The position numbers were made by a program, and so were the translations under genes. A stretch of 64,000 nucleotides of DNA. It comes from Victivallis vadensis (GTDB taxonomy: Bacteria > Verrucomicrobiota > Lentisphaeria > Victivallales > Victivallaceae). Position 1 is the stretch's first letter. Each line of letters begins with the position of its first letter. The stretch is taken from NCBI GenBank assembly GCA_040391785.1, contig JBEBXH010000027.1, forward strand, positions 1,500-65,499, read 5' to 3'. Under the pieces are notes generated by a model. The model did no database searches, was not told where the DNA came from, and saw only the letters and a program-made list of their open reading frames with translations. Positions 1-11,106 of the stretch are shown piece after piece.

Positions 1-2
1 CG

Positions 3-404
3 AATACCTTGGGATACATCACGAATCGGCTTCTATACTGTTGTTGTGAAAATGAAGCGTTTATCTCCAAGGTGCTGATTGAAAATCAGATTGAAGTACC
101 CCATTTGATTCATGTCCGATATGGTGGTGGCTTTGGCGGTGCTTATGCTTCTGGAGAATATTTACTTCACTGCCTATCGACGCTGAAGGTCGAGCTGTTT
201 ATCACCGATCCGCATTTGAATGAGCAGAGCGGAGATAGAAAGGCATTGGAGGCATATCCTAATCTCAATGGGGAACGCCCTTCGCTAAATTTGCTATATA
301 AATTGAGAGGAAAATGCTGGTCGAATCATGGTACTGTTTCATGGTATTTATGTAAGAAAAATAATAATTCACGGAGCGATTTTGAGCAAGCCTTATATCT
401 TTAA
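3..404 (+). CDS. hypothetical protein, 5'-partial (frame is open to the window edge)
   Basis: ORF track 9..404. The first listed codon is TTG and the frame stays open upstream. I recognise no motif. It overlaps the next ORF by 77 nt in another frame. Confidence 0.35.
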   Translation, partial: NTLGYITNRLLYCCCENEAFISKVLIENQIEVPHLIHVRYGGGFGGAYASGEYLLHCLSTLKVELFITDPHLNEQSGDRKALEAYPNLNGERPSLNLLYKLRGKCWSNHGTVSWYLCKKNNNSRSDFEQALYL

Positions 405-1287
405 TAAGAGTGGTACTTGGTTTGATCCGTCAAGCGGAAAGCTCTACGAGTTCACCAAAAGTACCGTTTCCGTTATGGTTGCTTATCCTCAGCCGAAAGC
501 GTGGAAGAAAACGACCAAACGGTATCCGAACTGGACACGGTATCGACCATCATTGCACTGGCTTGACTCCAGACTCAAATATCATTTCGAAAAGCATGGT
601 GGTTATTCCGTGCTGGCGGTCAATGGCGAAGGCTATGACCTATACGATCCGTGGTTAAGGTGGTACTGCACAATTCCAGCAGAGATCCAAGTTCATCTGA
701 ATCTGTTCCGAACGCATAAGTGGCACATGCTGGCTTTTATGGCGTACGGAGGGCAAGCCGCTATTGATCTGGTGGCCGATAACCCTGCCTTAGCTTTTGC
801 CTTGGCATCGAATTGGATTTTTCATAAACCTGCCGTGCAACAGCCAATGCGTGCCGTTCACCGCCATCTACGTGCCAATAAATCACATGCGAGTATCATA
901 GCTTGGCTAGGGTTTTCATATCCGTGGAAAGCAGAGGTGATTTTGAAAAAACTGTCAGCTTCGGAAGTAAATGTTTCAAGATTACTGACCTTACGTGATA
1001 TGATGACTTCAACAGACGTAGTAAATATGCTCATGAAGCTACCTCGCTTGGACGGTGCAGTGATATATTTGTTGAGTCTGAAATCAAAAGGGTATCTTTC
1101 TCAGCGATTCATCAATGATTTCATGGCGATTGAAGGTACTCAACTTAATGAAGAAATCACCACTGCTCTTTCTGATTCCATCAAAATTCACGATGCATAT
1201 AAATTTTATCAGGAGTTTCCACGCATGGACTCGATCAGGCAGTTACTGCAGTACCGCAAGCAATTATCAGAGGAATTTGAACAGTGA
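328..1287 (+). CDS. hypothetical protein (319 aa), start uncertain
   Basis: Long ORF in AT-rich DNA. Its stop overlaps the next gene's start (GTGA at 1284-1287). No recognisable domain and no clear SD before 328. Confidence 0.45.
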   Translation: MVLFHGIYVRKIIIHGAILSKPYIFNKSGTWFDPSSGKLYEFTKSTVSVMVAYPQPKAWKKTTKRYPNWTRYRPSLHWLDSRLKYHFEKHGGYSVLAVNGEGYDLYDPWLRWYCTIPAEIQVHLNLFRTHKWHMLAFMAYGGQAAIDLVADNPALAFALASNWIFHKPAVQQPMRAVHRHLRANKSHASIIAWLGFSYPWKAEVILKKLSASEVNVSRLLTLRDMMTSTDVVNMLMKLPRLDGAVIYLLSLKSKGYLSQRFINDFMAIEGTQLNEEITTALSDSIKIHDAYKFYQEFPRMDSIRQLLQYRKQLSEEFEQ

Positions 1288-2141
1288 AAAACATAAAACG
1301 AATGGCTTTTGCATTTCTGGTATTGCTGAGCTGTGGATGGGATCATGCTCCTCAGTTTACTTCCGCTGAACTGACAACAGCCGAAAAGGAGCTGAACAAT
1401 GCCACAACTCAAGTAGAAATGACTGGTGCCGCTGGTGGTATTGCCGAATGCTCTCGGAATCTGATGCTGGAGGCTCTGGATTATCGGCTGTCTAAATTAT
1501 CAAAAACTGAGCGTAGCCAATTGTTACAGGAACAGTATGACTGGCATTTTTATATGCAACGCAGAAATTCTTATCCAATGGGAAAATTTTCAATGACTCC
1601 AATGTTGGGATATCTACGGGAAGCAAGCCGCCATAAATACCGCTTCGAGGAACTGGCTTGCCCGAATGATACTTATAATGCCTATCAGAAAATCAAAGAT
1701 GCCCCTATCAAGTTCAATAAATCGGCAAAACCATTATTCTGGGGTGAGCTGGATATTCATATTCCAAAAGATAAAAGGAAAACGGACTCCGCTGATCTGG
1801 AAACAGTAGGACAGCTCCTCCCACGATTCTGCCGTATTATCAAAAAAGACACTGATGAATACTGGATCGGGATCATCGTACCGACAAATTACAGCGTTGT
1901 TTCATCGTTCGGACTGGGAACCGAAACCAATCTTTGCATATGGAAGAATGGTCAAAACGTTGCCAATCACATTATCGGTAAAGAAATCACCATCAAGAAA
2001 CTGGAACTGAAAGGCAATATCATTATCATCCGCTACCGCCAAGATGAAAAACAATCGCCCATGATTGCTGAATTCAATCTGACTGCTGAAAATAAAAATG
2101 AGATTCAAATTAACCATTGGACAACGGAAACTAGTGAATAA
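1284..2141 (+). CDS. predicted lipoprotein (285 aa)
   Basis: The N-terminus MKNIKRMAFAFLVLLSCG has a signal peptide plus an LLSC lipobox. The GTG start is coupled to the upstream stop. The region after the signal loosely resembles DUF1311/LprI-like helices (weak). Confidence 0.55.
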   Translation: MKNIKRMAFAFLVLLSCGWDHAPQFTSAELTTAEKELNNATTQVEMTGAAGGIAECSRNLMLEALDYRLSKLSKTERSQLLQEQYDWHFYMQRRNSYPMGKFSMTPMLGYLREASRHKYRFEELACPNDTYNAYQKIKDAPIKFNKSAKPLFWGELDIHIPKDKRKTDSADLETVGQLLPRFCRIIKKDTDEYWIGIIVPTNYSVVSSFGLGTETNLCIWKNGQNVANHIIGKEITIKKLELKGNIIIIRYRQDEKQSPMIAEFNLTAENKNEIQINHWTTETSE

Positions 2142-2184
2142 TAATTAAATAATAATCCTAACCAAACGGAGGGTATTAATTACA

Positions 2185-2661
2185 ATGAGCACAAAAGAAA
2201 CTAAAAACGAAAAGGAACTAAAGCCAATGAACTCAAAAGAACTCAAAGCGAAATTTGAAAAAATTCAAGGACTAATAAATGACTATTATGCCGTCCCTGT
2301 ATTACGCTTTATAGAGCAAGAAGACGAACCTATATTTGAATCTGGAGTGGAACAGCCTCGTCATAACATGTGGAAATCTGATTCTGAGAATTGCATACTT
2401 TACTTTGGACGCAAAACCCCTATTAAAAATGAAGAAGATTGTGATCTGGATGAAGAAATCAAGAAACTGACGAACAATCCAGAATTAGCTGATATCATCG
2501 AAGAACAATATTTTTTTGATGGTAGCATAAATCTTATTTCAAGTGACTGTGGTGGAAAAACCCCAGAAGAAGCATTAGAAAAACTCGAAAAGCTCTGTGA
2601 GTTGCTCAAAAAAGATTACATTCTTATTTCTGAAATTAAGTATAAACTTGGCTGTTTTTGA
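2185..2661 (+). CDS. acidic hypothetical protein (158 aa)
   Basis: ATG is preceded by a GGAGGG SD at about 2168. The product is rich in D/E. The stop TGA lies in a T5 run, followed by an out-of-frame poly-Asp/Glu coding tract. Confidence 0.5.
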   Translation: MSTKETKNEKELKPMNSKELKAKFEKIQGLINDYYAVPVLRFIEQEDEPIFESGVEQPRHNMWKSDSENCILYFGRKTPIKNEEDCDLDEEIKKLTNNPELADIIEEQYFFDGSINLISSDCGGKTPEEALEKLEKLCELLKKDYILISEIKYKLGCF

Positions 2662-2674
2662 CAACGACGATCGG

Positions 2675-2710
2675 GATGATGATGATGATGACGAGGACGA
2701 TGATGAGGAA
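2675..2710 (+). repeat. GAT/GAC/GAG triplet tract; reads as repeated TGA stops in the frame of the upstream ORF
   Basis: Direct reading gives gatgatgatgatgatgacgaggacgatgatgaggaa. In one frame this encodes DDDDDDEDDDEE. Confidence 0.7.
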
Positions 2711-2780
2711 TAAGCAGCTCGAAATTTTCTTTTTGGTTGGTTCTGAATCTCAATTCAGAGATCGGACAAAATCGTAGATA

Positions 2781-2847
2781 TTAAAAAGTGTCTTTTCTGA
2801 GTTCTGCCTCCATCATCAGTATCTGCAGGCATGCTCAGAAAAGACAC
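2781..2847 (-). terminator. probable rho-independent terminator of the recombinase gene (perfect 14-bp inverted repeat)
   Basis: GTGTCTTTTCTGAG (2788-2801) pairs with CTCAGAAAAGACAC (2834-2847). An inner TGCCT/AGGCA pairing extends the stem. On the minus strand a TTTTTAA run follows. Confidence 0.5.
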
Positions 2848-2854
2848 ACGGAGA

Positions 2855-3430
2855 TTATTGATTCAGTAGCTGATGGACTCTGGTTCTGGATATCCCCACC
2901 GCCTTGGCAATTTCCGAAAGACTTTTCCCCTCTTGTCGCAAAGATAAAACTTTGGGAACATCGGCAATCTGAGGACGACCGAGTTTTTGGCCTTTGGCAC
3001 GAACACGGGCAAGTCCGACTTTGGTTCGTTCAGAGATCCGAATCCGCTCTTGTTTTGCCAAGCACGCCATGAGGCTGACGATAGCGTCGGCAAATACCCC
3101 CAATGAAGATATATATTCTTCGGTATAGGAATGCCACTTCACCTTGTAGTTATCGAGGCGAGTCAGGTAATCGAGGGTCTGCCGAGAACCTTCACGGCTA
3201 AAGCGGTCGAGACTCCAAAAGAGCAGAACGTCGAATTTTCTCTGCCTGGCTTTTTGAAAAACACTTTTCAAACCGGTACGTTCCTCTGCCGATTTACCAC
3301 CACTGGCAATATCACTGACAACGTCGATAATCTCCCATCCCTGTCGATCAGCGTACTCACGGAGTTGGCTAATTTGATTCTCGGTAGTCTGGTCTTCGGT
3401 ACTGACTCGGGTATAGATGATGCAACGCAT
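2855..3430 (-). CDS. small serine recombinase (resolvase/invertase family)
   Basis: MRCIIYTRVSTEDQ carries the catalytic Ser motif. The C-terminal HTH reads SLSEIAKAVGISRTRVHQLL. A GGAG SD lies 9 nt before the ATG at 3430. Confidence 0.9.
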   Translation of the reverse strand: MRCIIYTRVSTEDQTTENQISQLREYADRQGWEIIDVVSDIASGGKSAEERTGLKSVFQKARQRKFDVLLFWSLDRFSREGSRQTLDYLTRLDNYKVKWHSYTEEYISSLGVFADAIVSLMACLAKQERIRISERTKVGLARVRAKGQKLGRPQIADVPKVLSLRQEGKSLSEIAKAVGISRTRVHQLLNQ

Positions 3431-3560
3431 GTTTTTATTCTCCAATTTTTGCTGTTAAGAAATGGGTCTCAAAATGTCATCGAAATTGCCGCTTAAAATT
3501 CATCGATTCTCCGCTGTTCAGATTATGGTCGTTTTCTGTACAGCACCATCAAAAAAAATT

Positions 3561-4340
3561 TCACACCCTTCCATTTCGGATATGTTGCTGAAATAAAAAC
3601 GGTACGGACTGCCATTCCGTCAAATCCGAAATATTGAATCTGTAAATTCGCATGGAAGCAAGTTGCAATGACTGCCAACCGCCCATCGTTGCCGTAGCTT
3701 TGATCAGTGGAGCGGCTTCGCTGGAATAAATGATGCAACGGTATACTTTATGGTAAAGGAACGCTATGGGCATATTTCCAACGCCGACATAGATTGAATC
3801 TGGTTCAAGGCGGTTTATCAGCACAAAAGACATTGTACCTTCGAAATCACATAGGCTGTCAGCAAATTGCTCCATATCGAAGCCGCCATCAGATATACAA
3901 CTGTCAGCTAATCGAAATAGTGCCTCACTGTCCACTTGACCAATCCGCTTCCAACCATGCCGGGCAAACAAGGCATTATGGTTCAGGATAGTTCCGTTAT
4001 GAGTACCGACGCAACGATCAGTGATAATCGGATGGTTATTGACTGCGACCGATTCGCTACCGACAGTTCGCCAACGAGTATGACCAAGGGCAGCCGCAGA
4101 ATGATTATTGACCCCATTCATCATCCGTTGATATTCTGGACTCTGCGTGAGGCGGCTGGCCGAAGTCGCATGCTTCAGAACTCGACTACTACTATCTTTA
4201 TTGGAAATATACATGCCGCTGGCATCACGACCACGAGATTCATTATATAATAGAAGCTGAGTGAATACCGAAGTAAGGCTATTCAGCTCTCGCTGAGTTC
4301 GCCGCTTCTGTCCAAAGATTACGCCACATTGACCGCACAT
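3561..4340 (-). CDS. class-II (Ntn) glutamine amidotransferase domain protein
   Basis: N-terminal Met-Cys (MCGQCGVIF) supplies the nucleophile. GHTRWRTVG...NNHP and GTHNGTILN motifs are present. The start lies 1 nt after the stop of the upstream amidoligase gene. Confidence 0.75.
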   Translation of the reverse strand: MCGQCGVIFGQKRRTQRELNSLTSVFTQLLLYNESRGRDASGMYISNKDSSSRVLKHATSASRLTQSPEYQRMMNGVNNHSAAALGHTRWRTVGSESVAVNNHPIITDRCVGTHNGTILNHNALFARHGWKRIGQVDSEALFRLADSCISDGGFDMEQFADSLCDFEGTMSFVLINRLEPDSIYVGVGNMPIAFLYHKVYRCIIYSSEAAPLIKATATMGGWQSLQLASMRIYRFNISDLTEWQSVPFLFQQHIRNGRV

Positions 4341-4341
4341 A

Positions 4342-5238
4342 TCAGGCTACCTTCTTCGGCTTCGGAAGCCCATTCTTATATGAAGCACAGCCTGGCATAT
4401 ATTCCAAAAGGAAATGCCGCATGGTCTTGAACTCATCGCCAATAGCTCCAAGCCTCAGCAGATGAACTCTCATATCATATTTCGCCGTTGACGAATTGAA
4501 ACAACGTTTCTTACTGGCGGCGTACTGAACTTTCTCCGCACGATTGAGCAAGAGTAAGCAGTACTGCAGATAGGATTTTATCCTACCGGCATGAAGCGTC
4601 GATTCAAACCACCTGAACTCAATCGTACCACGATAAAACAACGAATGAAAGTTCACCCCATGATACCGTGAACTATGATAATGCTGGTGTTCTGCGGATT
4701 CGCCATTATACCATAACCGATTCAGATCGGTCAGGGTTTGCGGACGCTTCAAATTAATCTTCTCTATGAAATCCGTTTCCATGGGCTTGGTATACATCTC
4801 CATGCGATTGGAGGATATTTGCAGAGCATGGATAATCAGCGGTTCTTGCTTGTACACGATCTTGGCGAGATTGCCGAGTTGCCTCCCATTTAGGGAAAGA
4901 GCATCCACATGGACATGGATACCGCACGAACTGTTTACACGAGCTCTGCTCTTCCGAACCGCACGGATAACCTGCTGTAAGGTAGCGACATCATTGGGAT
5001 AAGTAAGGATAGGGCTGACGATCTCAGTATTTGCGGCTCCGATGCTCCGATCTCTGACCGCTTTCCAAGTGCGACCGTCAGCACAAGTACAGCTCCAAGC
5101 CTCATATATATCATCTTCATACTGGACATCACCGCCCACCACCTTCTGAATGGCAGAAATAGTGTCTTTTCTTGTCAAATTAATCGTCTCGATTTCAACT
5201 CCGAATCTCATTCCAGCCAATTCCGCTCTCTGATCCAT
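4342..5238 (-). CDS. Amidoligase_2 (glutamine-synthetase-like carboxylate-amine ligase) family protein
   Basis: Motifs seen: FGVEIE, EIVSP, CGIHVHVD, RYHGVNFHSL and GTIEFRWFESTL. I prefer the start at 5238 (GAGG SD); the track ORF extends to a TTG at 5307. Confidence 0.75.
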   Translation of the reverse strand: MDQRAELAGMRFGVEIETINLTRKDTISAIQKVVGGDVQYEDDIYEAWSCTCADGRTWKAVRDRSIGAANTEIVSPILTYPNDVATLQQVIRAVRKSRARVNSSCGIHVHVDALSLNGRQLGNLAKIVYKQEPLIIHALQISSNRMEMYTKPMETDFIEKINLKRPQTLTDLNRLWYNGESAEHQHYHSSRYHGVNFHSLFYRGTIEFRWFESTLHAGRIKSYLQYCLLLLNRAEKVQYAASKKRCFNSSTAKYDMRVHLLRLGAIGDEFKTMRHFLLEYMPGCASYKNGLPKPKKVA

Positions 5239-5562
5239 ATCTGCCTCATAATCATGGTTTTTGTCAATGCCAGACAATATCATCAAAATACGAAAAATCA
5301 AGCACAAAATAGATGTAAATCATTAATAATTAATATGTTGCAAATATTCACTATCGATACTGAAGATAATCTGATCTGGATAGGGGCGAATATCGCCATT
5401 TCGAGTTAAAATCAGGAGATACGCCAATAATCTGGATATAAAGAAAAGACACAATCTCTGAGGGCAGGACGAAGGCAGAATACTGCAGTTTTTACAAATT
5501 CGGAATGTGCCACCTAAAATCTAAAATTTCAATCTTATCCGACATATCAGCAGACGGCAGTG

Positions 5563-5648
5563 AAAAAATTTTCGGAAATTTTGGATTTTTGGGAAATAAC
5601 AATTTGGCTCTCTGTGCCTTTTTATCGATATTTACCGTAGGCTATAAT
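5563..5648 (+). promoter_or_regulatory. phased A/T tracts plus a candidate sigma70 promoter for the RT operon
   Basis: Four AnTnGG tracts lie at 5563-5607 with about 10-nt phasing. TATAAT is at 5643-5648, with a weak -35 (TTTATC) 16-17 nt upstream. Confidence 0.3.
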
Positions 5649-5720
5649 GCTATCTCCTTGTAAATGTTTGTAATAATGATATTTTACCATATCGTAATCA
5701 TTATATGGTGGGACATAAAA

Positions 5721-6911
5721 ATGTTGAAGCAAATATATTCTACTGAAAATTTGGCAAAAGTTATTAGAAAGAAACATATTGTTGCGTGGGAATTATGGAA
5801 TAACAATAGTCAAAAGCGAAAGAAACTAGAAGAATTAGTCTTAGCAATAGCTAATAATAATTATAAATTGAATGAAAACTTGAATTGCCAGATGTTTAAT
5901 GGCAAGCTTGCTTATTTCCCTGCATGCGCAGAAGATTTTTGTGCAATAAAACTTGCAGATTATTTTATCCGTAGAATATATAAGGTACAACAGGCAGATC
6001 GTAGAAAAATCATAAAACAGTTGAAAATTATGCTTACGGATGGGCTTCCTTATGGAATGATTAAATTGGATATATCCGATTTTTACGAGTCTATTGATTT
6101 TGGGAAGATTATTTCGCAAATTCAAGATGAAATGATTATTGGCCATGAAACGATTTTTATTTTACAATCTGTATTGGCGCAAATTGGAGATACAACGGGG
6201 CTTCCACGAGGGTTGGGAATCAGTGCTAGTTTATCTGAGATTTTCATGCGTTCAATAGATCGGGAAATTAGAAAAATTGAGGGAATATTTTTTTACGTTC
6301 GTTATGTAGATGATATCATCATTATTTATGATTGCAAATACGATATAACTTCTTTGATTAGTAATATATTGCATGATAACCATCTGTCGGAGAACGAGGG
6401 AAAAAGAAAAAATATAGTTATTAGCGAAACTCGAAGTAATGAGCATTATTTTGATTATCTTGGCTATAACTTCAAAATACAAGAAGGTAAAAGATCTAAT
6501 GAAATTACGGTGAAAATTGCTGAACGGAAAATAAATAAACAGAAAACACGAATTGCGTCAACTTTTATACATTATTCTAAAACTCATGATTTTTCTATGT
6601 TGAAAAGGCGACTTCGCTTTCTTAGTGGATTAGTTCTACTCAATGATGATGGGCGAGGGCGATTATATGCAGGAAATTCCTATAATTATAGTGAAATATC
6701 TGAGAATACATATTTATCCGAGCTTGATCAATATTTGTACTCAATTTTGTCCGGGAGTGGGCGCTTAGGAAGGAAAATTGAAAGATTATTAACCTCAGGA
6801 CAAAAGAATGAGCTAATGCGTATTTCATTCAGACAGGGCTACAATAAAAAATTTCATTTCTTTTATTCACGCAGTCAAGCGGCAGATATAAAGAAAGCCT
6901 GGGGAAAGTAG
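5721..6911 (+). CDS. reverse transcriptase 1 (compact, 396 aa); DRT3a/UG3-like by architecture
   Basis: RT motif A is KLDISDFYESID. Motif B is GLPRGLGISASLSEIFM. Motif C is YVRYVDDIIIIY (YVDD at 6303-6314). FDYLGYNF follows. A GGTGGG SD precedes the ATG at 5721. Confidence 0.85.
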   Translation: MLKQIYSTENLAKVIRKKHIVAWELWNNNSQKRKKLEELVLAIANNNYKLNENLNCQMFNGKLAYFPACAEDFCAIKLADYFIRRIYKVQQADRRKIIKQLKIMLTDGLPYGMIKLDISDFYESIDFGKIISQIQDEMIIGHETIFILQSVLAQIGDTTGLPRGLGISASLSEIFMRSIDREIRKIEGIFFYVRYVDDIIIIYDCKYDITSLISNILHDNHLSENEGKRKNIVISETRSNEHYFDYLGYNFKIQEGKRSNEITVKIAERKINKQKTRIASTFIHYSKTHDFSMLKRRLRFLSGLVLLNDDGRGRLYAGNSYNYSEISENTYLSELDQYLYSILSGSGRLGRKIERLLTSGQKNELMRISFRQGYNKKFHFFYSRSQAADIKKAWGK

Positions 6912-6912
6912 A

Positions 6913-8859
6913 ATGATAACAATAAATAAAGATGACAAATTTAGAGTATTACTCACTGAAGTTTTACCATATGAAGTTCCTATTTGGCTCTCAAATAATT
7001 GCTTTTATAAGTTATGTTTTTCTGGGCTTATTACTTATCAGTCAGGCGCATTAATAATTAATGGTCAAGGAATTTCATTAAGCGACAACCTGATTCCATT
7101 GGATTATTTCATCGGAAAAGATGATAACAGTTTCAGAAAACTCTCGATCATGCATCCATTGGCTCAATTAAAAGTTGTTGATTTTTATGAGCAATACGGA
7201 GATATTATTCCATATTATTGTCAATGTTCAGAGGCTACTTTACGAGCTCCATTTGCAATAGCAAAAACAATCCGTAATACAGATGATGCTGAAGAAGAAA
7301 AAGAACTCATAGAAGAAGAAGGTGAATTGAGCCCCAAAGACGAAGATCCTCCTTGCAGAACATTTCTTGATACATACTGCAGTTCATATTACACTTATAA
7401 AAAGATTGATTTCTTCTATAAATTTTTTGAATCATACGAATTTCACCGACTTGAAAAAAGATATACTAAATGCTTGCAGGTTGATGTAGCAAAATGTTTT
7501 GATAGCATATATACCCATTCAATTTGCTGGGCTATTAAAGGAAAAGCAACAGCCAAATTAATGGCAGGTAAATTGGAATCATTTGAAGGTAATTTTGATT
7601 ACCTAATGCAAACCACAAATTATCGTGAAACTCATGGCATTTTGATCGGGCCAGAGCTTTCTCGTATATTTGCAGAAATTATTTTTCAGAAAATTGATAA
7701 TGACCTTATAGCTACCCTCTCGCAGAATTCAGTTCGTTGGAGCAATAAAAAAGATTATGAATTTAGGCGGTATGTTGATGACTATATTATATTCTTTAAT
7801 GATGAAAACTGTGTTAGAGACATCATCGCATGTTTAGAAAAATGCTTGATAGAATATAAAATGCATCTGAATGAATCTAAAACCTCATATAGTATGCGTC
7901 CATTCATATCAGAAATTTCAATGTGCAAAATGGAACTTCGTGATTTGATTAAATCGTACTTTGACAGCAAATATGATGAAGAAGGAGAACCTCAAAATAT
8001 CAATAGACCCTCATCTGTTGCTAATAGAATTATCATTCGCATTAAAGCAATCGTTAAAAAGTTTAGCTCTATCTCTTATAAAAGTATTTCTGGTTTTTTA
8101 TTAAATGACTTTACTCGTGGAATTGATCGATTTTTAAAGAAAGCGGCAGAATATGAGACTGATGAACGATGTCTTGTAAACAATTTGCTAATTGATTTGG
8201 ATATCATATTTTTTGTGCATTCAATGGATATTCGAGTCAGGCCGACTGATTTGCTGACTAGAGTTATATTAGGCATATTGCGATCTCCATTATTACAGGA
8301 GGGAAAATGCAAAGCTCCTATTCAGAGAAAGATCTTCGATTCATGTCGTGACATATTCACAATATTAAACGTGCAGAAGAAAAAATGTAATGTTGAAATC
8401 TGTAACGTTCTGTTGATGCTTTCAGCTTTGGAAGAAGATTTTCAATTTACGGAACCATTCTTAATAAAACATTGTGAAATGGACGAGGAAAAACCCATTG
8501 ATTATTTTTTATGGGGGACATTGATGCTCTATATTCGTGATTCACCAAAATATTCATCTTTTAGAATGGTTTTAGAAAAATGCTTAATTCGTTCATTTGA
8601 AACAGGGAAAGATATCTTGAATTCAACGGAACTTTTTATGCTGTTACTGGATTCGTTAGCTTGTCCCTACCTTCCAAAAGAGACGAAACGAAAAATTATA
8701 CGAATTGTAGAAGCTCGTTCAACCTTAGGCTTAAGCCAAGCTAATCAGGATAAATTTATAGCGAGCTGTTCTCGGCACAATTTCTTCTTGGACTGGAAAA
8801 ATGAGGATTGGCTATTTGAAATGGCAAAACGGAAGATGTATATTTTCCCATATGAATAA
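6913..8859 (+). CDS. reverse transcriptase 2 (648 aa, AbiK-like class 1 UG/Abi type with a long helical C-terminal domain); DRT3b/UG8-like by architecture
   Basis: Motifs seen: QVDVAKCFDSIYTHSICW, ETHGILIGPELSRIFAEIIF, FRRYVDDYIIFF (YVDD at 7771-7782) and LNESKT. About 300 aa of helical tail follows. The ATG lies 1 nt after the RT1 stop. Confidence 0.85.
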   Translation: MITINKDDKFRVLLTEVLPYEVPIWLSNNCFYKLCFSGLITYQSGALIINGQGISLSDNLIPLDYFIGKDDNSFRKLSIMHPLAQLKVVDFYEQYGDIIPYYCQCSEATLRAPFAIAKTIRNTDDAEEEKELIEEEGELSPKDEDPPCRTFLDTYCSSYYTYKKIDFFYKFFESYEFHRLEKRYTKCLQVDVAKCFDSIYTHSICWAIKGKATAKLMAGKLESFEGNFDYLMQTTNYRETHGILIGPELSRIFAEIIFQKIDNDLIATLSQNSVRWSNKKDYEFRRYVDDYIIFFNDENCVRDIIACLEKCLIEYKMHLNESKTSYSMRPFISEISMCKMELRDLIKSYFDSKYDEEGEPQNINRPSSVANRIIIRIKAIVKKFSSISYKSISGFLLNDFTRGIDRFLKKAAEYETDERCLVNNLLIDLDIIFFVHSMDIRVRPTDLLTRVILGILRSPLLQEGKCKAPIQRKIFDSCRDIFTILNVQKKKCNVEICNVLLMLSALEEDFQFTEPFLIKHCEMDEEKPIDYFLWGTLMLYIRDSPKYSSFRMVLEKCLIRSFETGKDILNSTELFMLLLDSLACPYLPKETKRKIIRIVEARSTLGLSQANQDKFIASCSRHNFFLDWKNEDWLFEMAKRKMYIFPYE

Positions 8860-9030
8860 ATATTGAGAAGTTTTTGGCGGGCAACAATATTTTTCTCTTT
8901 GGATAAATCGCATTTTTTTAATAAGAATGCATTGTTCTCTGAGATTTCCTCTCTCCTATGAGAATAGATGAGAGTGAGGAGGAAACTCCACACACAAGCG
9001 ATGCTCGCCAAAAGCTTCTCTTTTTTTGTT
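8859..9030 (+). ncRNA. candidate structured non-coding RNA or terminator region downstream of RT2
   Basis: Hairpins lie at 8859-8890, 8910-8930 and 8945-8985. The third is 15 bp, interrupted, with a GAGA tetraloop. A CCACACACAA tract is at 8988-8997. A small hairpin is at 8998-9008 and a T7 run at 9021-9027. Confidence 0.3.
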
Positions 9031-9062
9031 CAGGTATATATTCTATAGATTGCTTTCCTGTT

Positions 9063-9326
9063 TTAAGCAACTTCAAGCCATTGCAATTCAAGAATGATTC
9101 GGATTAGTTTGTCTTTTGTCAATTGCTTCAGGCTTAGAGCAGTATACTTTTTGTTATCCGAGGTTTCTTCTGTAGCGGGAAGGACGTTTATTACCTTTTG
9201 CTTGGATTCCATTGAGATGTGGGGGTAGTGGGAAGTCATGTCGGCGGTGTGGAGCGCCCTACCATTGATTGGATCACGGATATGAGAACGGCTTGGTTTA
9301 TGGTCATGGTGCAGAAGGTGTGGCAT
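9063..9326 (-). pseudogene. possible C-terminal remnant of a tyrosine integrase (very tentative)
   Basis: PHLLHH...ALHTADMTSHYPH loosely parallels the box II pattern PHxLRH...LGHxxxxxTxxYxH with similar spacing. The Arg is replaced and the N-terminal ~300 aa are missing. It lies next to the tRNA 3' end in the same orientation. Confidence 0.25.
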
Positions 9327-9504
9327 GGAATAGATACTATGGGGTTTTAGCTGTCGCCCATGGGCGAAATTTCTTTTTCAGCATGTATGTCTTGAGTTGA
9401 AGGTCGAACATCTCAGCCTCAAAAGTGGTCAGTCTTTTGTATGTCTATTATTTGGTGTTTGAGCTTGAACGGTGGTGGCTGATGGTGTTCGATAGGGATT
9501 TTGG

Positions 9505-9540
9505 AAAAAAGAAAACCAACGGTGTTAAATCGTTGGTTTT
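9505..9540 (-). terminator. rho-independent terminator just downstream of tRNA-Thr (also hairpin-competent on the plus strand)
   Basis: AAAACCAACG (9512-9521) pairs perfectly with CGTTGGTTTT (9531-9540). On the minus strand a TTTTCTTTTTTCC run follows. Confidence 0.6.
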
Positions 9541-9552
9541 GAGCTTATTAAG

Positions 9553-9628
9553 TGGAGCCAATGATCGGAATCGAACCGATGACCTATTCATTACGAGTGA
9601 ATTGCTCTACCGACTGAGCTACATTGGC
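9553..9628 (-). tRNA. tRNA-Thr (anticodon CGT)
   Basis: I folded the cloverleaf by hand. Acceptor is GCCAATG/CATTGGC. D stem is GCTC/GAGC. Anticodon stem is ATTCA/TGAAT with loop CTCGTAA. T arm is ATCGG-TTCGATT-CCGAT. CCA is encoded. Length is 76 nt. Confidence 0.92.
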
Positions 9629-9693
9629 TGATTTCGCTTAATTTAATGACTCTTTTGGAAATTTCAACTTCAAATTCAAGTTTTTTTATCTTT

Positions 9694-11106
9694 TTACCGG
9701 GGAAGAGGGACGTAGCCTGCGGCTTCGATCACGGTTTGGCCCTCTGGGGTGGTCAGAAAGTCGTAGATTCGACGGGCAGGGGAGTCGGCGGGTTCATCGC
9801 GCCGGATGGCCGCATAAATCGGCGCGCGGAGCGGGTAGGTGCCGTCGGCGATGGTCTCATTGGTTGGCTTGACGCCGTTGATCGCCAGGTTTTTCGAGTA
9901 TGGCACCGGGTGAATGTTCTGTTCGTAGTAAAACACCGAAAAGCCGAGCGAGTTGACTCCCAAAGCATCAAAGATGCCTCTCATGGTGAATTCTTTATGG
10001 ACCAACTTCTTATTACATGGCAGTGATCCATTGAAAATCAGATTCCTCATCAGGATGCCAGTACCGGAATTCGGATTCCTGTCAAGCGGGCGAATGGGCT
10101 TGGAGGGGGCTTGATCATCGATATCTTTCCAGGTGAGCCTATCCGGCTGCGCCTGGGTATAGATTCTTTTGATTTGCTCCGGGGTTATGTTTTCGATCGG
10201 GTTCGAGACGTGGACTACGACCACCAGCGCGTCGTAGGCGATGATCTTGGATTCGAGTTTGTCGAGCGATTCGCGGGGAAAAATTGCGCCTTTGCCGGGA
10301 AACGGGGTCGAGAGGTCGAACTTTTCCTCGTAATCCTTTTCCGTCAATGCGGCCACAGCTTCCGGGGAAACGGAGTTGATGACGATCAGATTAGGATTGT
10401 TCAACAATTGCTGATAGGCTGCGCCAGTCTGGCTGTTCGGAGTCAGGGTGTTGCCTGTGTGGAGCAGTGCCCACCGGCGTTTTTGAAGGCTTGTGGCGTC
10501 ATCACTCAGCCCATATCTGATTCCGGGAAGATTATTCTCATATTGGATGAGAATATGGGGAAACAGGCTTGTTTCATCCGTTTTCAAATGTTCTTGCCAA
10601 CTCGGCTTGATCCCGAACATATAACACAGAATAATCATACGCATGGGTAAAGTCGATGTCGCACCATCCAAATCGGGAGTAGCATCGATGGACAAGTCCC
10701 CAAACGGCGGTTTGTCGTAGTTGAACTTGATTTTGGACAAACTGCGGTTCAAGCGGTGGTTTACATGTTCCTGCAGGTCGTGCGCATATAATCGTCCCTC
10801 CAAGGTATTAAGCAGCCAGAAATAAGACATGAACTCGTGCTTGGATGGCTCGTATTGGAAAGATATGGACCCGTTTGGGGATGGCATATATGGCTCATAT
10901 TGATATAGGGTTGACAAATCCTTTTCGAGAATCTCGCAGGAAGCATCGCGATAGCGTTTTTCCCCTTCTCCTGTGAAAGTGAAAGAAAAATCATCTTTGT
11001 CTCTTATTACCAACTGCAGGAGCTGTTTGGCGGAAAGTTTTTCCTCGGCCAGGGCTGAACCGGTTGAGAGAAGAAGCGAAAGCAGAATCAGCACGTAACG
11101 AAACAT
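9694..11106 (-). CDS. secreted protein with a C-terminal PstS-like (PBP_like_2) substrate-binding domain
   Basis: Signal peptide MFRYVLILLSLLLSTGSALA sits after a GGAGG SD. The C-terminal half reads NPNSGTG...LGFSVFYY...ADGTYPLRAPIY, typical of phosphate-binding-protein-like domains. Confidence 0.6.
   Translation of the reverse strand: MFRYVLILLSLLLSTGSALAEEKLSAKQLLQLVIRDKDDFSFTFTGEGEKRYRDASCEILEKDLSTLYQYEPYMPSPNGSISFQYEPSKHEFMSYFWLLNTLEGRLYAHDLQEHVNHRLNRSLSKIKFNYDKPPFGDLSIDATPDLDGATSTLPMRMIILCYMFGIKPSWQEHLKTDETSLFPHILIQYENNLPGIRYGLSDDATSLQKRRWALLHTGNTLTPNSQTGAAYQQLLNNPNLIVINSVSPEAVAALTEKDYEEKFDLSTPFPGKGAIFPRESLDKLESKIIAYDALVVVVHVSNPIENITPEQIKRIYTQAQPDRLTWKDIDDQAPSKPIRPLDRNPNSGTGILMRNLIFNGSLPCNKKLVHKEFTMRGIFDALGVNSLGFSVFYYEQNIHPVPYSKNLAINGVKPTNETIADGTYPLRAPIYAAIRRDEPADSPARRIYDFLTTPEGQTVIEAAGYVPLPR

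What the first reader, a model, noticed from the sequence alone, without database searches (positions are those of the whole stretch)
8859..9062. Structured non-coding stretch after RT2: multi-hairpin region with a GNRA-capped 15-bp stem followed by a CACACACA tract
Seen: about 200 nt after the RT2 stop contain no credible ORF. They can fold into several hairpins.
- AATATTG/CAATATT at 8859-8890.
- GCATT/AATGC at 8910-8930.
- A long interrupted hairpin at 8945-8985, TTTCCTC-TCTC-CTAT[GAGA]ATAG-at-GAGA-gtgag-GAGGAAA, giving 7+4+4 bp with a GAGA tetraloop.
A CCACACACAA tract follows at 8988-8997. Then comes a small hairpin GCGA-TGC-TCGC (8998-9008) and a T7 run (9021-9027).
Established knowledge: DRT3 was described with an associated structured ncRNA. 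I do not reliably remember on which side of the genes it lies. Other DRT families (DRT2, DRT9) use adjacent ncRNAs as template or scaffold.
Inference: this could be the cognate ncRNA, with the simple CA repeat as a candidate templating segment. Alternatively it is only the operon terminator.
Basis: partly seen in the sequence, partly recalled or inferred. Interest (0 to 1): 0.6.

Follow-up and report, generated by a model that had tools for sequence, protein, structure and literature searches.

The report
DRT3 template RNA after drt3b
The roughly 165 bases after the second reverse-transcriptase gene encode the non-coding RNA of a DRT3 anti-phage system, and its exposed ACACAC tract is the template for repeat DNA; this kind of RNA is already published, so this is a correct call on a new, divergent example.

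Summary
Window 5664-6911 and 6913-8859 encode Drt3a and Drt3b (PADLOC E 2.5e-109 and 2.7e-182).

The stretch 8865-9027 folds far better than shuffles (z = -7.5). It forms a 19-bp long-range closing helix P1 (8865-8883 / 9002-9020), three internal hairpins, a single-stranded ACACACAA (8990-8997) and a U7 run.

- **Motif conservation:** 77 of 80 other Drt3b loci carry ACACAC within 260 nt after the stop on the coding strand, against 2 of 80 on the other strand.
- **Covariation:** in 12 loci, all 18 modelled P1 pairs show compensatory changes.
- **Model search:** a covariance model built without the window finds 8862-9031 at E = 7.6e-14. This is its only hit in the window and in the 6.16-Mb genome.

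Published work had already located this ncRNA downstream of UG8/Drt3b with an exposed 'CACACA' motif (Mestre 2022). Work in E. coli (2026) showed that ACACAC templates poly(dTdG) synthesis by Drt3a.

Verdict: new member of a known kind, modest interest.

The parts
5664..6911 (+). drt3a (UG3, class 2 RT), the enzyme expected to bind the ncRNA and copy its template. The true start may be the internal ATG at 5721.
   Evidence: PADLOC Drt3a E 2.5e-109. Pfam RVT_1. PDB 9z6y_A 'Drt3a reverse transcriptase protein' E 4.6e-38, with YVDD present in the alignment.
6913..8859 (+). drt3b (UG8, class 1 RT), the protein-primed, protein-templated poly(dCdA) polymerase in the E. coli system.
   Evidence: PADLOC Drt3b E 2.7e-182. 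PDB 26cz_A and 9z6y_H 'Drt3b' E 7e-88 and 9e-75. E21, R75, D191, R251, V288-D289-D290 and Y647 are invariant in a 32-sequence alignment. They align with E. coli E22, R71, D182, R241, YVDD and priming Y666.
8865..8883 (+). P1 5' strand (GAGAAGUUUUUGGCGGGCA). It starts 6 nt after the drt3b stop codon and is the likely 5' region of the ncRNA.
   Evidence: It pairs with 9002-9020 in the minimum-free-energy fold. All 18 modelled P1 pairs show compensatory changes in 12 other loci. Cognate versus non-cognate duplex test p = 1.4e-16.
8884..8893 (+). Single-stranded A/U-rich junction (ACAAUAUUUU), conserved in sequence within this clade.
   Evidence: AACAAUAUUUU-like sequence follows the P1 5' strand in L098, L104, L105 and L106. 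It forms conserved consensus positions in model R2.
8894..8944 (+).
   Evidence: Minimum-free-energy fold. The two lower helices are kept in L098, while the apical extension is absent there. Helices 2 and 3 of A5 are 93-97% paired with compensatory changes.
8947..8977 (+). P3 hairpin: 8947-8953/8970-8977 and 8956-8959/8964-8967, with loop GAGA.
   Evidence: Minimum-free-energy fold. All pairs are kept in L098, with C-G to U-G at 8953/8970. The loop differs (AUUU) in L098. Few other loci align here.
8978..8989 (+). P4: GGAG-GAAA-CUCC hairpin ending exactly at the template. It is the likely 5' template-boundary element, equivalent to the published 'stem-loop 4 adjacent to the template'.
   Evidence: Minimum-free-energy fold. 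A-U becomes G-C at 8980/8987 in L098. A hairpin of at least 4 bp ends 0-1 nt before ACACAC in 32/64 non-redundant loci, against 21.5% of random places (p = 5e-7). GNRA loops make up 8/19 tetraloops, against 3.9% in the control. [quoted passage not shown]
8990..8997 (+). ACACACAA: single-stranded template for poly(dTdG) synthesis by Drt3a.
   Evidence: Unpaired in the minimum-free-energy fold. ACACAC occurs within 260 nt after the stop on the coding strand in 77/80 loci. Controls: 2/80 on the other strand, 1/80 and 11/80 in two coding-sequence stretches, and 1/72 further downstream. The function was shown in E. coli, not here (PMC13174585).
8998..9001 (+). Linker GCGA between the template and the P1 3' strand. 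With U9002 it reads GCGAU, which contains the widely shared GAU.
   Evidence: ACACAC followed by GAU, GAA or CAA and then the P1 3' strand in most loci.
9002..9020 (+). P1 3' strand (UGCUCGCCAAAAGCUUCUC).
9021..9027 (+). U7 run directly after P1: the likely intrinsic termination signal and 3' end of the ncRNA.
   Evidence: The U-run directly follows the P1 3' strand in L098, L104, L105, L106, L034-L037 and L095. The simple terminator scan does not report it, because the 'loop' is 118 nt.

Best explanation
[quoted passage not shown] It is encoded immediately 3' of drt3b.

The RNA folds into a four-helix structure:
- a 19-bp closing helix P1;
- two internal stem-loops, P2 and P3;
- a short GAAA-capped hairpin P4 that abuts a single-stranded ACACACAA.

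Inferred mechanism, by homology with the E. coli system:
1. Drt3a binds this RNA and repeatedly copies ACACAC into tandem poly(dTdG). P4 acts as the 5' template boundary, and the repeat gives the microhomology needed for re-alignment.
2. Drt3b primes on its penultimate tyrosine (Y647 here). It makes the complementary poly(dCdA) without a nucleic-acid template, using E21 and R251.
3. The strands anneal to poly(GT/AC) duplex DNA.
4. Host RecBCD normally removes this DNA. It accumulates when phage inhibits RecBCD, and the result is abortive infection.

P1 followed by U7 probably also terminates transcription of the operon, which would define the RNA's 3' end.

Shown here: gene identities, structure, conservation, covariation and uniqueness. 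Inferred: expression, binding, templating and the defence outcome.
For: - **Gene identity.** Drt3a and Drt3b identified. All published key Drt3b residues are present.
- **Fold.** z = -7.5, with ACACACAA unpaired.
- **Motif.** ACACAC on the coding strand within 260 nt after the stop in 77/80 loci, against 2/80 on the other strand.
- **P1 pairing.** Cognate duplex energy -18.9 against -10.5 kcal/mol for non-cognate pairs, p = 1.4e-16. The cognate strand is the best partner in 27/63 loci.
- **Covariation.** Alignment of 12 loci from Verrucomicrobiota, Bacteroidota, Desulfobacterota, a Victivallales MAG and others: 93.4% of cells paired against 39-45% when slid, 0/500 shuffles as good, 34 of 42 pairs with changes on both sides, P1 18/18.
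- **Independent model.** Model R2, built without the window or its closest relative, scores window 8862-9031 at 84.2 bits, E = 7.6e-14. This is the only hit in the 64-kb window and in the 6.16-Mb genome.
- **Same layout in E. coli.** The experimentally defined E. coli ncRNA (161 nt, starting 15 nt after drt3b) has a closing helix, with ACACAC 4 nt before its 3' strand.
- **Literature.** PMC9226505, PMC13174585, PMC13314766.
- **Host.** The host encodes RecC and a RecB-like protein.
Against: - No expression or end-mapping data.
- The clade model does not detect the E. coli ncRNA (best score at the E. coli locus 12.5 bits, at an unrelated place). The link to the experimentally studied RNA therefore rests on position, topology and the motif, not on alignable sequence.
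- Rfam 15 has no family for it, and the published covariance model was not available.
- Alignment A5 was fitted to a structure derived from the window, which inflates pair counts. The duplex test is free of this bias.
- The function of this particular locus in a Victivallales-type host is untested.
Confidence: 0.9

Rival explanations
1. The stretch is only the intrinsic terminator and 3' UTR of the drt3a-drt3b operon. It has no separate RNA function, and the CA tract is incidental.
For: A U7 run directly follows a strong helix. No expression data are available. No match to any Rfam family.
Against: - A terminator needs no 118-nt multi-hairpin insert.
- It does not explain ACACAC in 77/80 loci on one strand only, always a few nt 5' of the helix's 3' strand.
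- It does not explain internal helices that also covary.
- E. coli carries the same layout plus a separate terminator hairpin. There the RNA is required for defence and for DNA synthesis (PMC13174585).
Confidence: 0.04
2. It is a genuine DRT3-type ncRNA gene but part of an inactive or decaying locus on an old island, so it no longer functions.
For: - The island is low-GC, and the flank towards tRNA-Thr has no detectable integrase.
- The nearest relatives (87% identical Drt3b) carry drt3b split into two frames.
Against: - In the window both RT genes are intact, full-length and 1 nt apart, with all catalytic, priming and templating residues present.
- The ncRNA gets one of the two highest scores with the family model.
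- P1 is perfectly paired.
Confidence: 0.05
3. The functional product lies on the minus strand: a small protein from the ORFs 8745-9011 or 8918-9091, or an antisense RNA.
For: Minus-strand ORFs of 88 and 57 aa overlap the region. The antisense strand also scores with the window-derived model R1 (37 bits), as expected for a long helix.
Against: - The motif is strand-specific (77/80 against 2/80).
- The model built from other loci (R2) hits only the plus strand.
- The closest relative has indels of 1, 1, 19 and 2 nt in this stretch. These would break those reading frames.
Confidence: 0.01

Closest known systems
DRT3 (UG3 + UG8) associated ncRNA, as defined in E. coli ECOR12 (Wang, Yoneyama et al. 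2026, PMC13174585; Deng et al. 2026 as reported in PMC13314766; predicted family-wide by Mestre et al. 2022, PMC9226505)
   Same: - Encoded in cis directly after drt3b on the same strand (start +6 nt here, +15 nt in E. coli).
- About 160 nt long.
- A closing helix encloses several stem-loops.
- Single-stranded ACACAC lies a few nt 5' of the closing helix's 3' strand.
- A stem-loop abuts the 5' side of the template.
- The two partner RTs carry all the published functional residues.
   Different: - No alignable sequence outside ACACAC, and my clade model does not find the E. coli RNA.
- P1 is 19 bp here against about 10 bp in E. coli.
- Here the U-run follows P1 directly, whereas E. coli has a separate GC-rich terminator hairpin after P1.
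- The template is followed by AA in this clade (ACACACAA).
- The host is a Victivallales-type (PVC group) bacterium rather than Enterobacteriaceae.
DRT10 (UG17) and DRT9 (UG28) ncRNAs
   Same: Class 2 UG RTs that copy a short, confined template in a loop of a structured ncRNA into tandem-repeat or homopolymer DNA, in a telomerase-like way (PMC12632851, PMC12489045). The window's Drt3a has UG17 as its next-best PADLOC family.
   Different: These are single-RT systems with different templates and products. Their ncRNA lies on the other side of the RT gene, at least in DRT9/UG28 (PMC9226505). They have no second, protein-templated RT.
Telomerase RNA
   Same: A short repeat template flanked 5' by a helix that limits copying (template boundary element). 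Repeat addition proceeds by re-alignment.
   Different: This is an analogy of mechanism only. There is no sequence or structural homology, and the product is free or protein-linked repeat DNA rather than chromosome ends.

Membership tests
DRT3 system (Drt3a + Drt3b + ncRNA) | Adjacent, co-oriented UG3 (Drt3a) and UG8 (Drt3b) reverse-transcriptase genes | tested here: met
   PADLOC E 2.5e-109 and 2.7e-182. The genes are 1 nt apart on the + strand. PDB Drt3a and Drt3b chains matched.
DRT3 system (Drt3a + Drt3b + ncRNA) | Drt3b residues for catalysis (YVDD), base selection (E22, R241, R71 in E. coli numbering) and protein priming (Y666) | tested here: met
   E21, R75, R251, Y287-V288-D289-D290 and Y647 are present. 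The columns of E21, R75, R251, V288, D289, D290 and Y647 are invariant in 32 homologues, and the residues align to the E. coli ones.
DRT3-associated ncRNA | Non-coding stretch directly downstream of drt3b on the same strand | tested here: met
   P1 starts 6 nt after the stop. No ORF with a family match lies there.
DRT3-associated ncRNA | Conserved 5'-ACACAC-3' motif exposed in a single-stranded region | tested here: met
   8990-8995 is unpaired in the minimum-free-energy and centroid folds. The motif is present in 77/80 homologous loci.
DRT3-associated ncRNA | Conserved secondary structure supported by covariation | tested here: met
   P1 has 18/18 pairs with compensatory changes. R2 hit E = 7.6e-14.
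DRT3-associated ncRNA | Match to the published DRT3 ncRNA covariance model, or alignability with the E. coli ncRNA | tested here: inconclusive
   The published model is not available and Rfam 15 has no such family. My clade model does not detect the E. coli RNA. The topology is the same. Mestre et al. also needed 20 separate subgroups (PMC9226505).
DRT3-associated ncRNA | Expressed as a discrete stable RNA that associates with the RTs | not testable with these tools
DRT3-associated ncRNA | Templates poly(dTdG) synthesis by Drt3a and is required for defence | not testable with these tools
   Needs biochemistry or a phage assay. Shown only for E. coli DRT3 (PMC13174585).

The most novel reading that the evidence does not exclude
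This clade includes the Victivallales-type window, Verrucomicrobiota and Bacteroidota. Its members may form a distinct structural subtype of the DRT3 ncRNA. In this subtype the long closing helix P1 would itself be the intrinsic terminator, so the RNA would be released by termination rather than by processing. The conserved AA (or A-run) 3' of ACACAC would set the entry or initiation register for Drt3a. This could bear on how Drt3a starts DNA synthesis, which remains unresolved in the E. coli work.
Probability: 0.25. Interest if true: 0.4.

Novelty: new member of a known kind. Interest (0 to 1): 0.3.

Why it matters
It confirms that a tool-less reading of raw sequence located the RNA component and the template of a DRT3 system. 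It also gives exact boundaries and a helix map for a divergent example in a gut-type Victivallales genome, far from the Enterobacteriaceae where the system was studied.

Three points are of practical use:
- RefSeq leaves the E. coli DRT3 ncRNA unannotated, and Rfam 15 has no family for this RNA.
- A clade-specific covariance model now recovers 20 loci across several phyla.
- The comparison shows which features are universal (closing helix, template-adjacent hairpin, ACACAC, short linker) and which vary (internal stem-loops, terminator arrangement). This helps in designing minimal or re-programmed templates.

It does not change the current understanding of DRT3.

Tried and rejected
- **Rfam scan.** The 4000-11000 scan at E <= 10 gave only the tRNA and chance matches.
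- **Single-protein locus scan.** A scan of genome contigs with the window's Drt3b alone found no relative. An alignment query was needed.
- **Plain MAFFT alignment.** Aligning six flanks mis-aligned the P1 3' strands and was not used for structure.
- **Clade model on E. coli.** Model R2 run on the E. coli DRT3 locus with filters off gave no hit at the ncRNA, so no single model unifies the subtypes.
- **Promoter scan.** It gives a 10/12 sigma-70-like site at 8816-8844, just upstream of P1. The number of such sites in the region is no higher than in shuffles (25 against 19.2 +/- 4.7), and its -10 hexamer lies in the conserved C-terminal codons. I do not claim an own promoter.
- **Terminator scan.** It does not report P1+U7 because of its loop limit.
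- **Decayed integrase.** The idea that 9063-9377(-) is a decayed integrase got no Pfam support, even at E <= 10.
Both were rejected as parts of the main fold because they overlap P1 strands. Hairpin 1 also gains a mismatch in the closest relative.
It could not be excluded as an alternative conformer.
Full report
**1. What is there.**

Two co-oriented genes precede the finding: 5664-6911 and 6913-8859. They are Drt3a (PADLOC E 2.5e-109) and Drt3b (E 2.7e-182). Both have an RVT_1 domain. They match the solved DRT3 chains 9z6y_A (Drt3a, E 4.6e-38), and 9z6y_H and 26cz_A (Drt3b, E 9e-75 and 7e-88).

The window's Drt3b keeps the residues that the E. coli work identifies as functional:
- E21 and R251 correspond to E. 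coli E22 and R241, which select dATP and dCTP.
- R75 corresponds to R71.
- YVDD lies at 287-290.
- The penultimate Y647 corresponds to the priming Y666.

All of these sit in conserved alignment positions. The columns of E21, R75, R251, V288, D289, D290 and Y647 are invariant in my 32-sequence alignment. The locus is therefore an apparently intact DRT3 system.

**2. The observation.**

RNA 8855-9040 folds at -66.4 kcal/mol against -37.5 +/- 3.9 for shuffles, z = -7.5.

It consists of:
- P1, a 19-bp long-range helix, 8865-8883 with 9002-9020;
- an A/U-rich junction;
- P4, a 4-bp GAAA-capped hairpin, 8978-8989;
- unpaired ACACACAA, 8990-8997;
- a 4-nt linker;
- the P1 3' strand, then U7 (9021-9027).

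**3. Related loci.**

The window's Drt3b is divergent. Its best full-length relative is 53% identical. An alignment-based scan returned 80 Drt3b loci from many phyla, and exact look-ups gave closer metagenomic relatives.

*The motif.* ACACAC occurs within 260 nt after the stop on the coding strand in 77 of 80 loci. Controls:
- 2 of 80 on the other strand of the same stretch;
- 1 of 80 and 11 of 80 in two coding stretches;
- 1 of 72 further downstream.

I attribute the 11/80 to codons of the conserved YTHS motif; I did not test this.

*The layout.* In nearly all loci it is the same. A strand starting at or just after the stop codon pairs with a strand that begins 0-10 nt after the AC tract.

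*An alignment-free test.* I tested this with the 35 nt around the stop against the 32 nt after the template, in 63 non-redundant loci:
- Cognate duplexes average -18.9 kcal/mol and non-cognate ones -10.5 (Mann-Whitney p = 1.4e-16).
- The cognate strand is the single best partner in 27 of 63 cases.

P1 sequences are unrelated between lineages. Examples are GAGAAGUUUUUGGCG, AGAGAUAACGGCGGGU, GGGAUAGCUGGUCC and AUGUCGCCUGCCUCC. This is covariation in the plain sense.

**4. Covariance models.**

A model built from the window plus its 87%-identity relative (R1) found 13 further loci. Each hit was on the + strand, directly after drt3b.

Twelve of these, without the window or its relative, were aligned as A5. 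On A5:
- 93.4% of cells are standard pairs, against 39-45% with the partner slid by 1-3 columns.
- 0 of 500 shuffles reach the observed values.
- 34 of 42 pairs change on both sides.
- All 18 P1 pairs do so.

The alignment is fitted to a structure derived from the window, which favours it. The test does not share this bias.

Model R2, built from A5, scores window 8862-9031 (+) at 84.2 bits, E = 7.6e-14. This is the only hit in the 64-kb window and in the whole 6.16-Mb genome, which also has a single Drt3b. R2 recovers 20 of the flanks at E < 0.1. The others belong to different subtypes, for example a short-P1 class with ACACAC only 23-50 nt after the stop.

**5. The individual hairpins.**

I compared the window with its closest relative.
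- P1 keeps pairing through U-G to U-A and G-C to A-U changes.
- The two lower P2 helices are unchanged. The P2 tip (8907-8925 in the alignment) is simply absent in the relative, as expected for an apical extension.
- The P3 register of the minimum-free-energy fold is fully kept.
- P4 shows a compensatory A-U to G-C change (8980/8987).

Across the family, a hairpin of at least 4 bp ends 0-1 nt before ACACAC in 32 of 64 non-redundant loci, against 21.5% of random places (p = 5e-7). GNRA loops cap 8 of 19 such tetraloop hairpins, against 3.9% in the control. A GNRA-capped stem is therefore a real feature.

**6. Comparison with what is known.**

- Mestre et al. 2022 (PMC9226505) retrieved the 300 nt downstream of UG8 because that region was already known to encode an ncRNA essential for DRT3. 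They found group-specific structures and a globally conserved, exposed 'CACACA'-like motif at a variable distance from the RT.
- Wang, Yoneyama et al. 2026 (PMC13174585) worked on E. coli ECOR12 DRT3. They showed that the ncRNA is encoded downstream of DRT3b and that its 5'-ACACAC-3' loop templates poly(dTdG) synthesis by DRT3a. They also found evidence that read-through into the adjacent stem-loop 4 truncates the products.
- The same paper shows that DRT3b makes protein-primed, protein-templated poly(dCdA), and that the strands form dsDNA. RecBCD restrains this DNA, and phage Gam unleashes it.
- Deng et al. 2026, as reported in PMC13314766 and PMC13213688, describe a 6:6:6 Drt3a:Drt3b:ncRNA complex.

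I fetched the published 161-nt E. coli ncRNA. I located it 15 nt after drt3b in 13 complete E. coli genomes, where it is unannotated, and folded it. It has a roughly 10-bp closing helix, with ACACAC 4 nt before its 3' strand. A long stem-loop ends next to the template, and a separate terminator hairpin follows.

The window's RNA has the same topology but no alignable sequence, and R2 does not detect the E. coli RNA. That agrees with the published need for many subgroup models.

The host genome encodes RecC (271.9 bits) and a neighbouring RecB-like ORF. The RecBCD-based control described for E. coli is therefore at least possible here.

**7. Mechanism and rivals.**

*Best explanation (0.9).* This is the DRT3 ncRNA. 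ACACACAA is the Drt3a template, P4 is the template boundary, and P1, P2 and P3 form the protein-binding scaffold. P1 plus U7 doubles as the terminator that sets the 3' end.

Gene identities, structure, conservation, covariation and uniqueness are shown here. Expression, binding, templating and defence are inferred by homology.

*Rivals.*
- 'Only a terminator' (0.04) does not explain the strand-specific motif, the insert or the internal covariation.
- 'An inactive relic' (0.05) is not suggested by anything in the window itself. However, the nearest relatives carry a frame-split drt3b.
- A minus-strand product (0.01) is contradicted by the strand bias and by indels in the relative.

**8. Context.**

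The DRT3 operon has 33-36% G+C and lies in a block of 33-47% G+C. DNA beyond 11 kb has 54-60% G+C. The low-GC block ends next to tRNA-Thr(CGU) at 9553-9628 (-). It also carries a serine recombinase and a GATase/Amidoligase_2 pair. This looks like a horizontally acquired island.

The genome is in the same family as a MAG labelled Victivallales (L001 = L044).

**9. Verdict.**

The thing is a new, divergent member of a kind that is already described and, since 2026, mechanistically understood. Interest is modest.

Earlier first-reader notes on the same window agree on the two-RT operon and the island junction. They did not change my reading.

Noticed in passing
window 1-9630: A low-GC block (33-47% G+C, against 54-60% beyond 11 kb) ends at tRNA-Thr(CGU) 9553-9628(-). 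It holds a serine recombinase (2855-3445, -), a GATase_6 + Amidoligase_2 pair (3561-5307, -), four unknown ORFs and the DRT3 operon. It is a likely acquired island. The left end may lie beyond the window.
   Followed up: partly
window 9063-9377 (-): The 104-codon open frame between the ncRNA and the tRNA has a faint HxxxH / ..Y.H look of a tyrosine-recombinase C-terminus. It gives no Pfam integrase match even at E <= 10, so a decayed integrase is not supported.
   Followed up: yes
L098-L103 (metagenome contigs), drt3b at about 553-2507: The closest relatives (87% identical Drt3b) were found on 24 contigs from several samples. In the six loci read, drt3b is split into overlapping ORFs of 397 and 255-256 aa in different frames, while the downstream ncRNA is intact. 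This is either a fixed frameshift (pseudogene) or something that needs a frameshift to be read.
   Followed up: no
L001 120-1130 (same family as the window's genome; Victivallales MAG): That genome's DRT3 operon also lies next to a tRNA gene. The tRNA is followed by about five tandem repeats of roughly 160 nt, each ending in a copy of the tRNA 3' end. It looks like a stack of attachment-site remnants from serial integrations.
   Followed up: no
L108 (E. coli NZ_CP019271.1 720122-728282): The experimentally studied type of DRT3 sits in a P4-like satellite (integrase, psu, ogr/delta, Icd-like). Its 161-nt ncRNA is not annotated in RefSeq, and in one record it falls under an over-extended drt3b feature.
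   Followed up: partly
window 8816-8844 (+): A sigma-70-like site (TTGAAA-17-TATATT, 10/12) lies just upstream of the ncRNA start. Its -10 hexamer is formed by the conserved C-terminal codons (M-Y-I-F) of Drt3b, which recur in relatives. It could be an internal promoter for the ncRNA, but the scan is no better than chance overall.
   Followed up: no
L054-L097 subset (for example L066, L070, L077, L088): A second ncRNA subtype has ACACAC only 23-50 nt after the stop. It has a short 5-7-bp closing helix (for example AUGCGC / UGCGCA) and a GGCUG-NNNN-CAGCC hairpin at the template. Further structure appears to follow downstream of the template rather than precede it.
   Followed up: no
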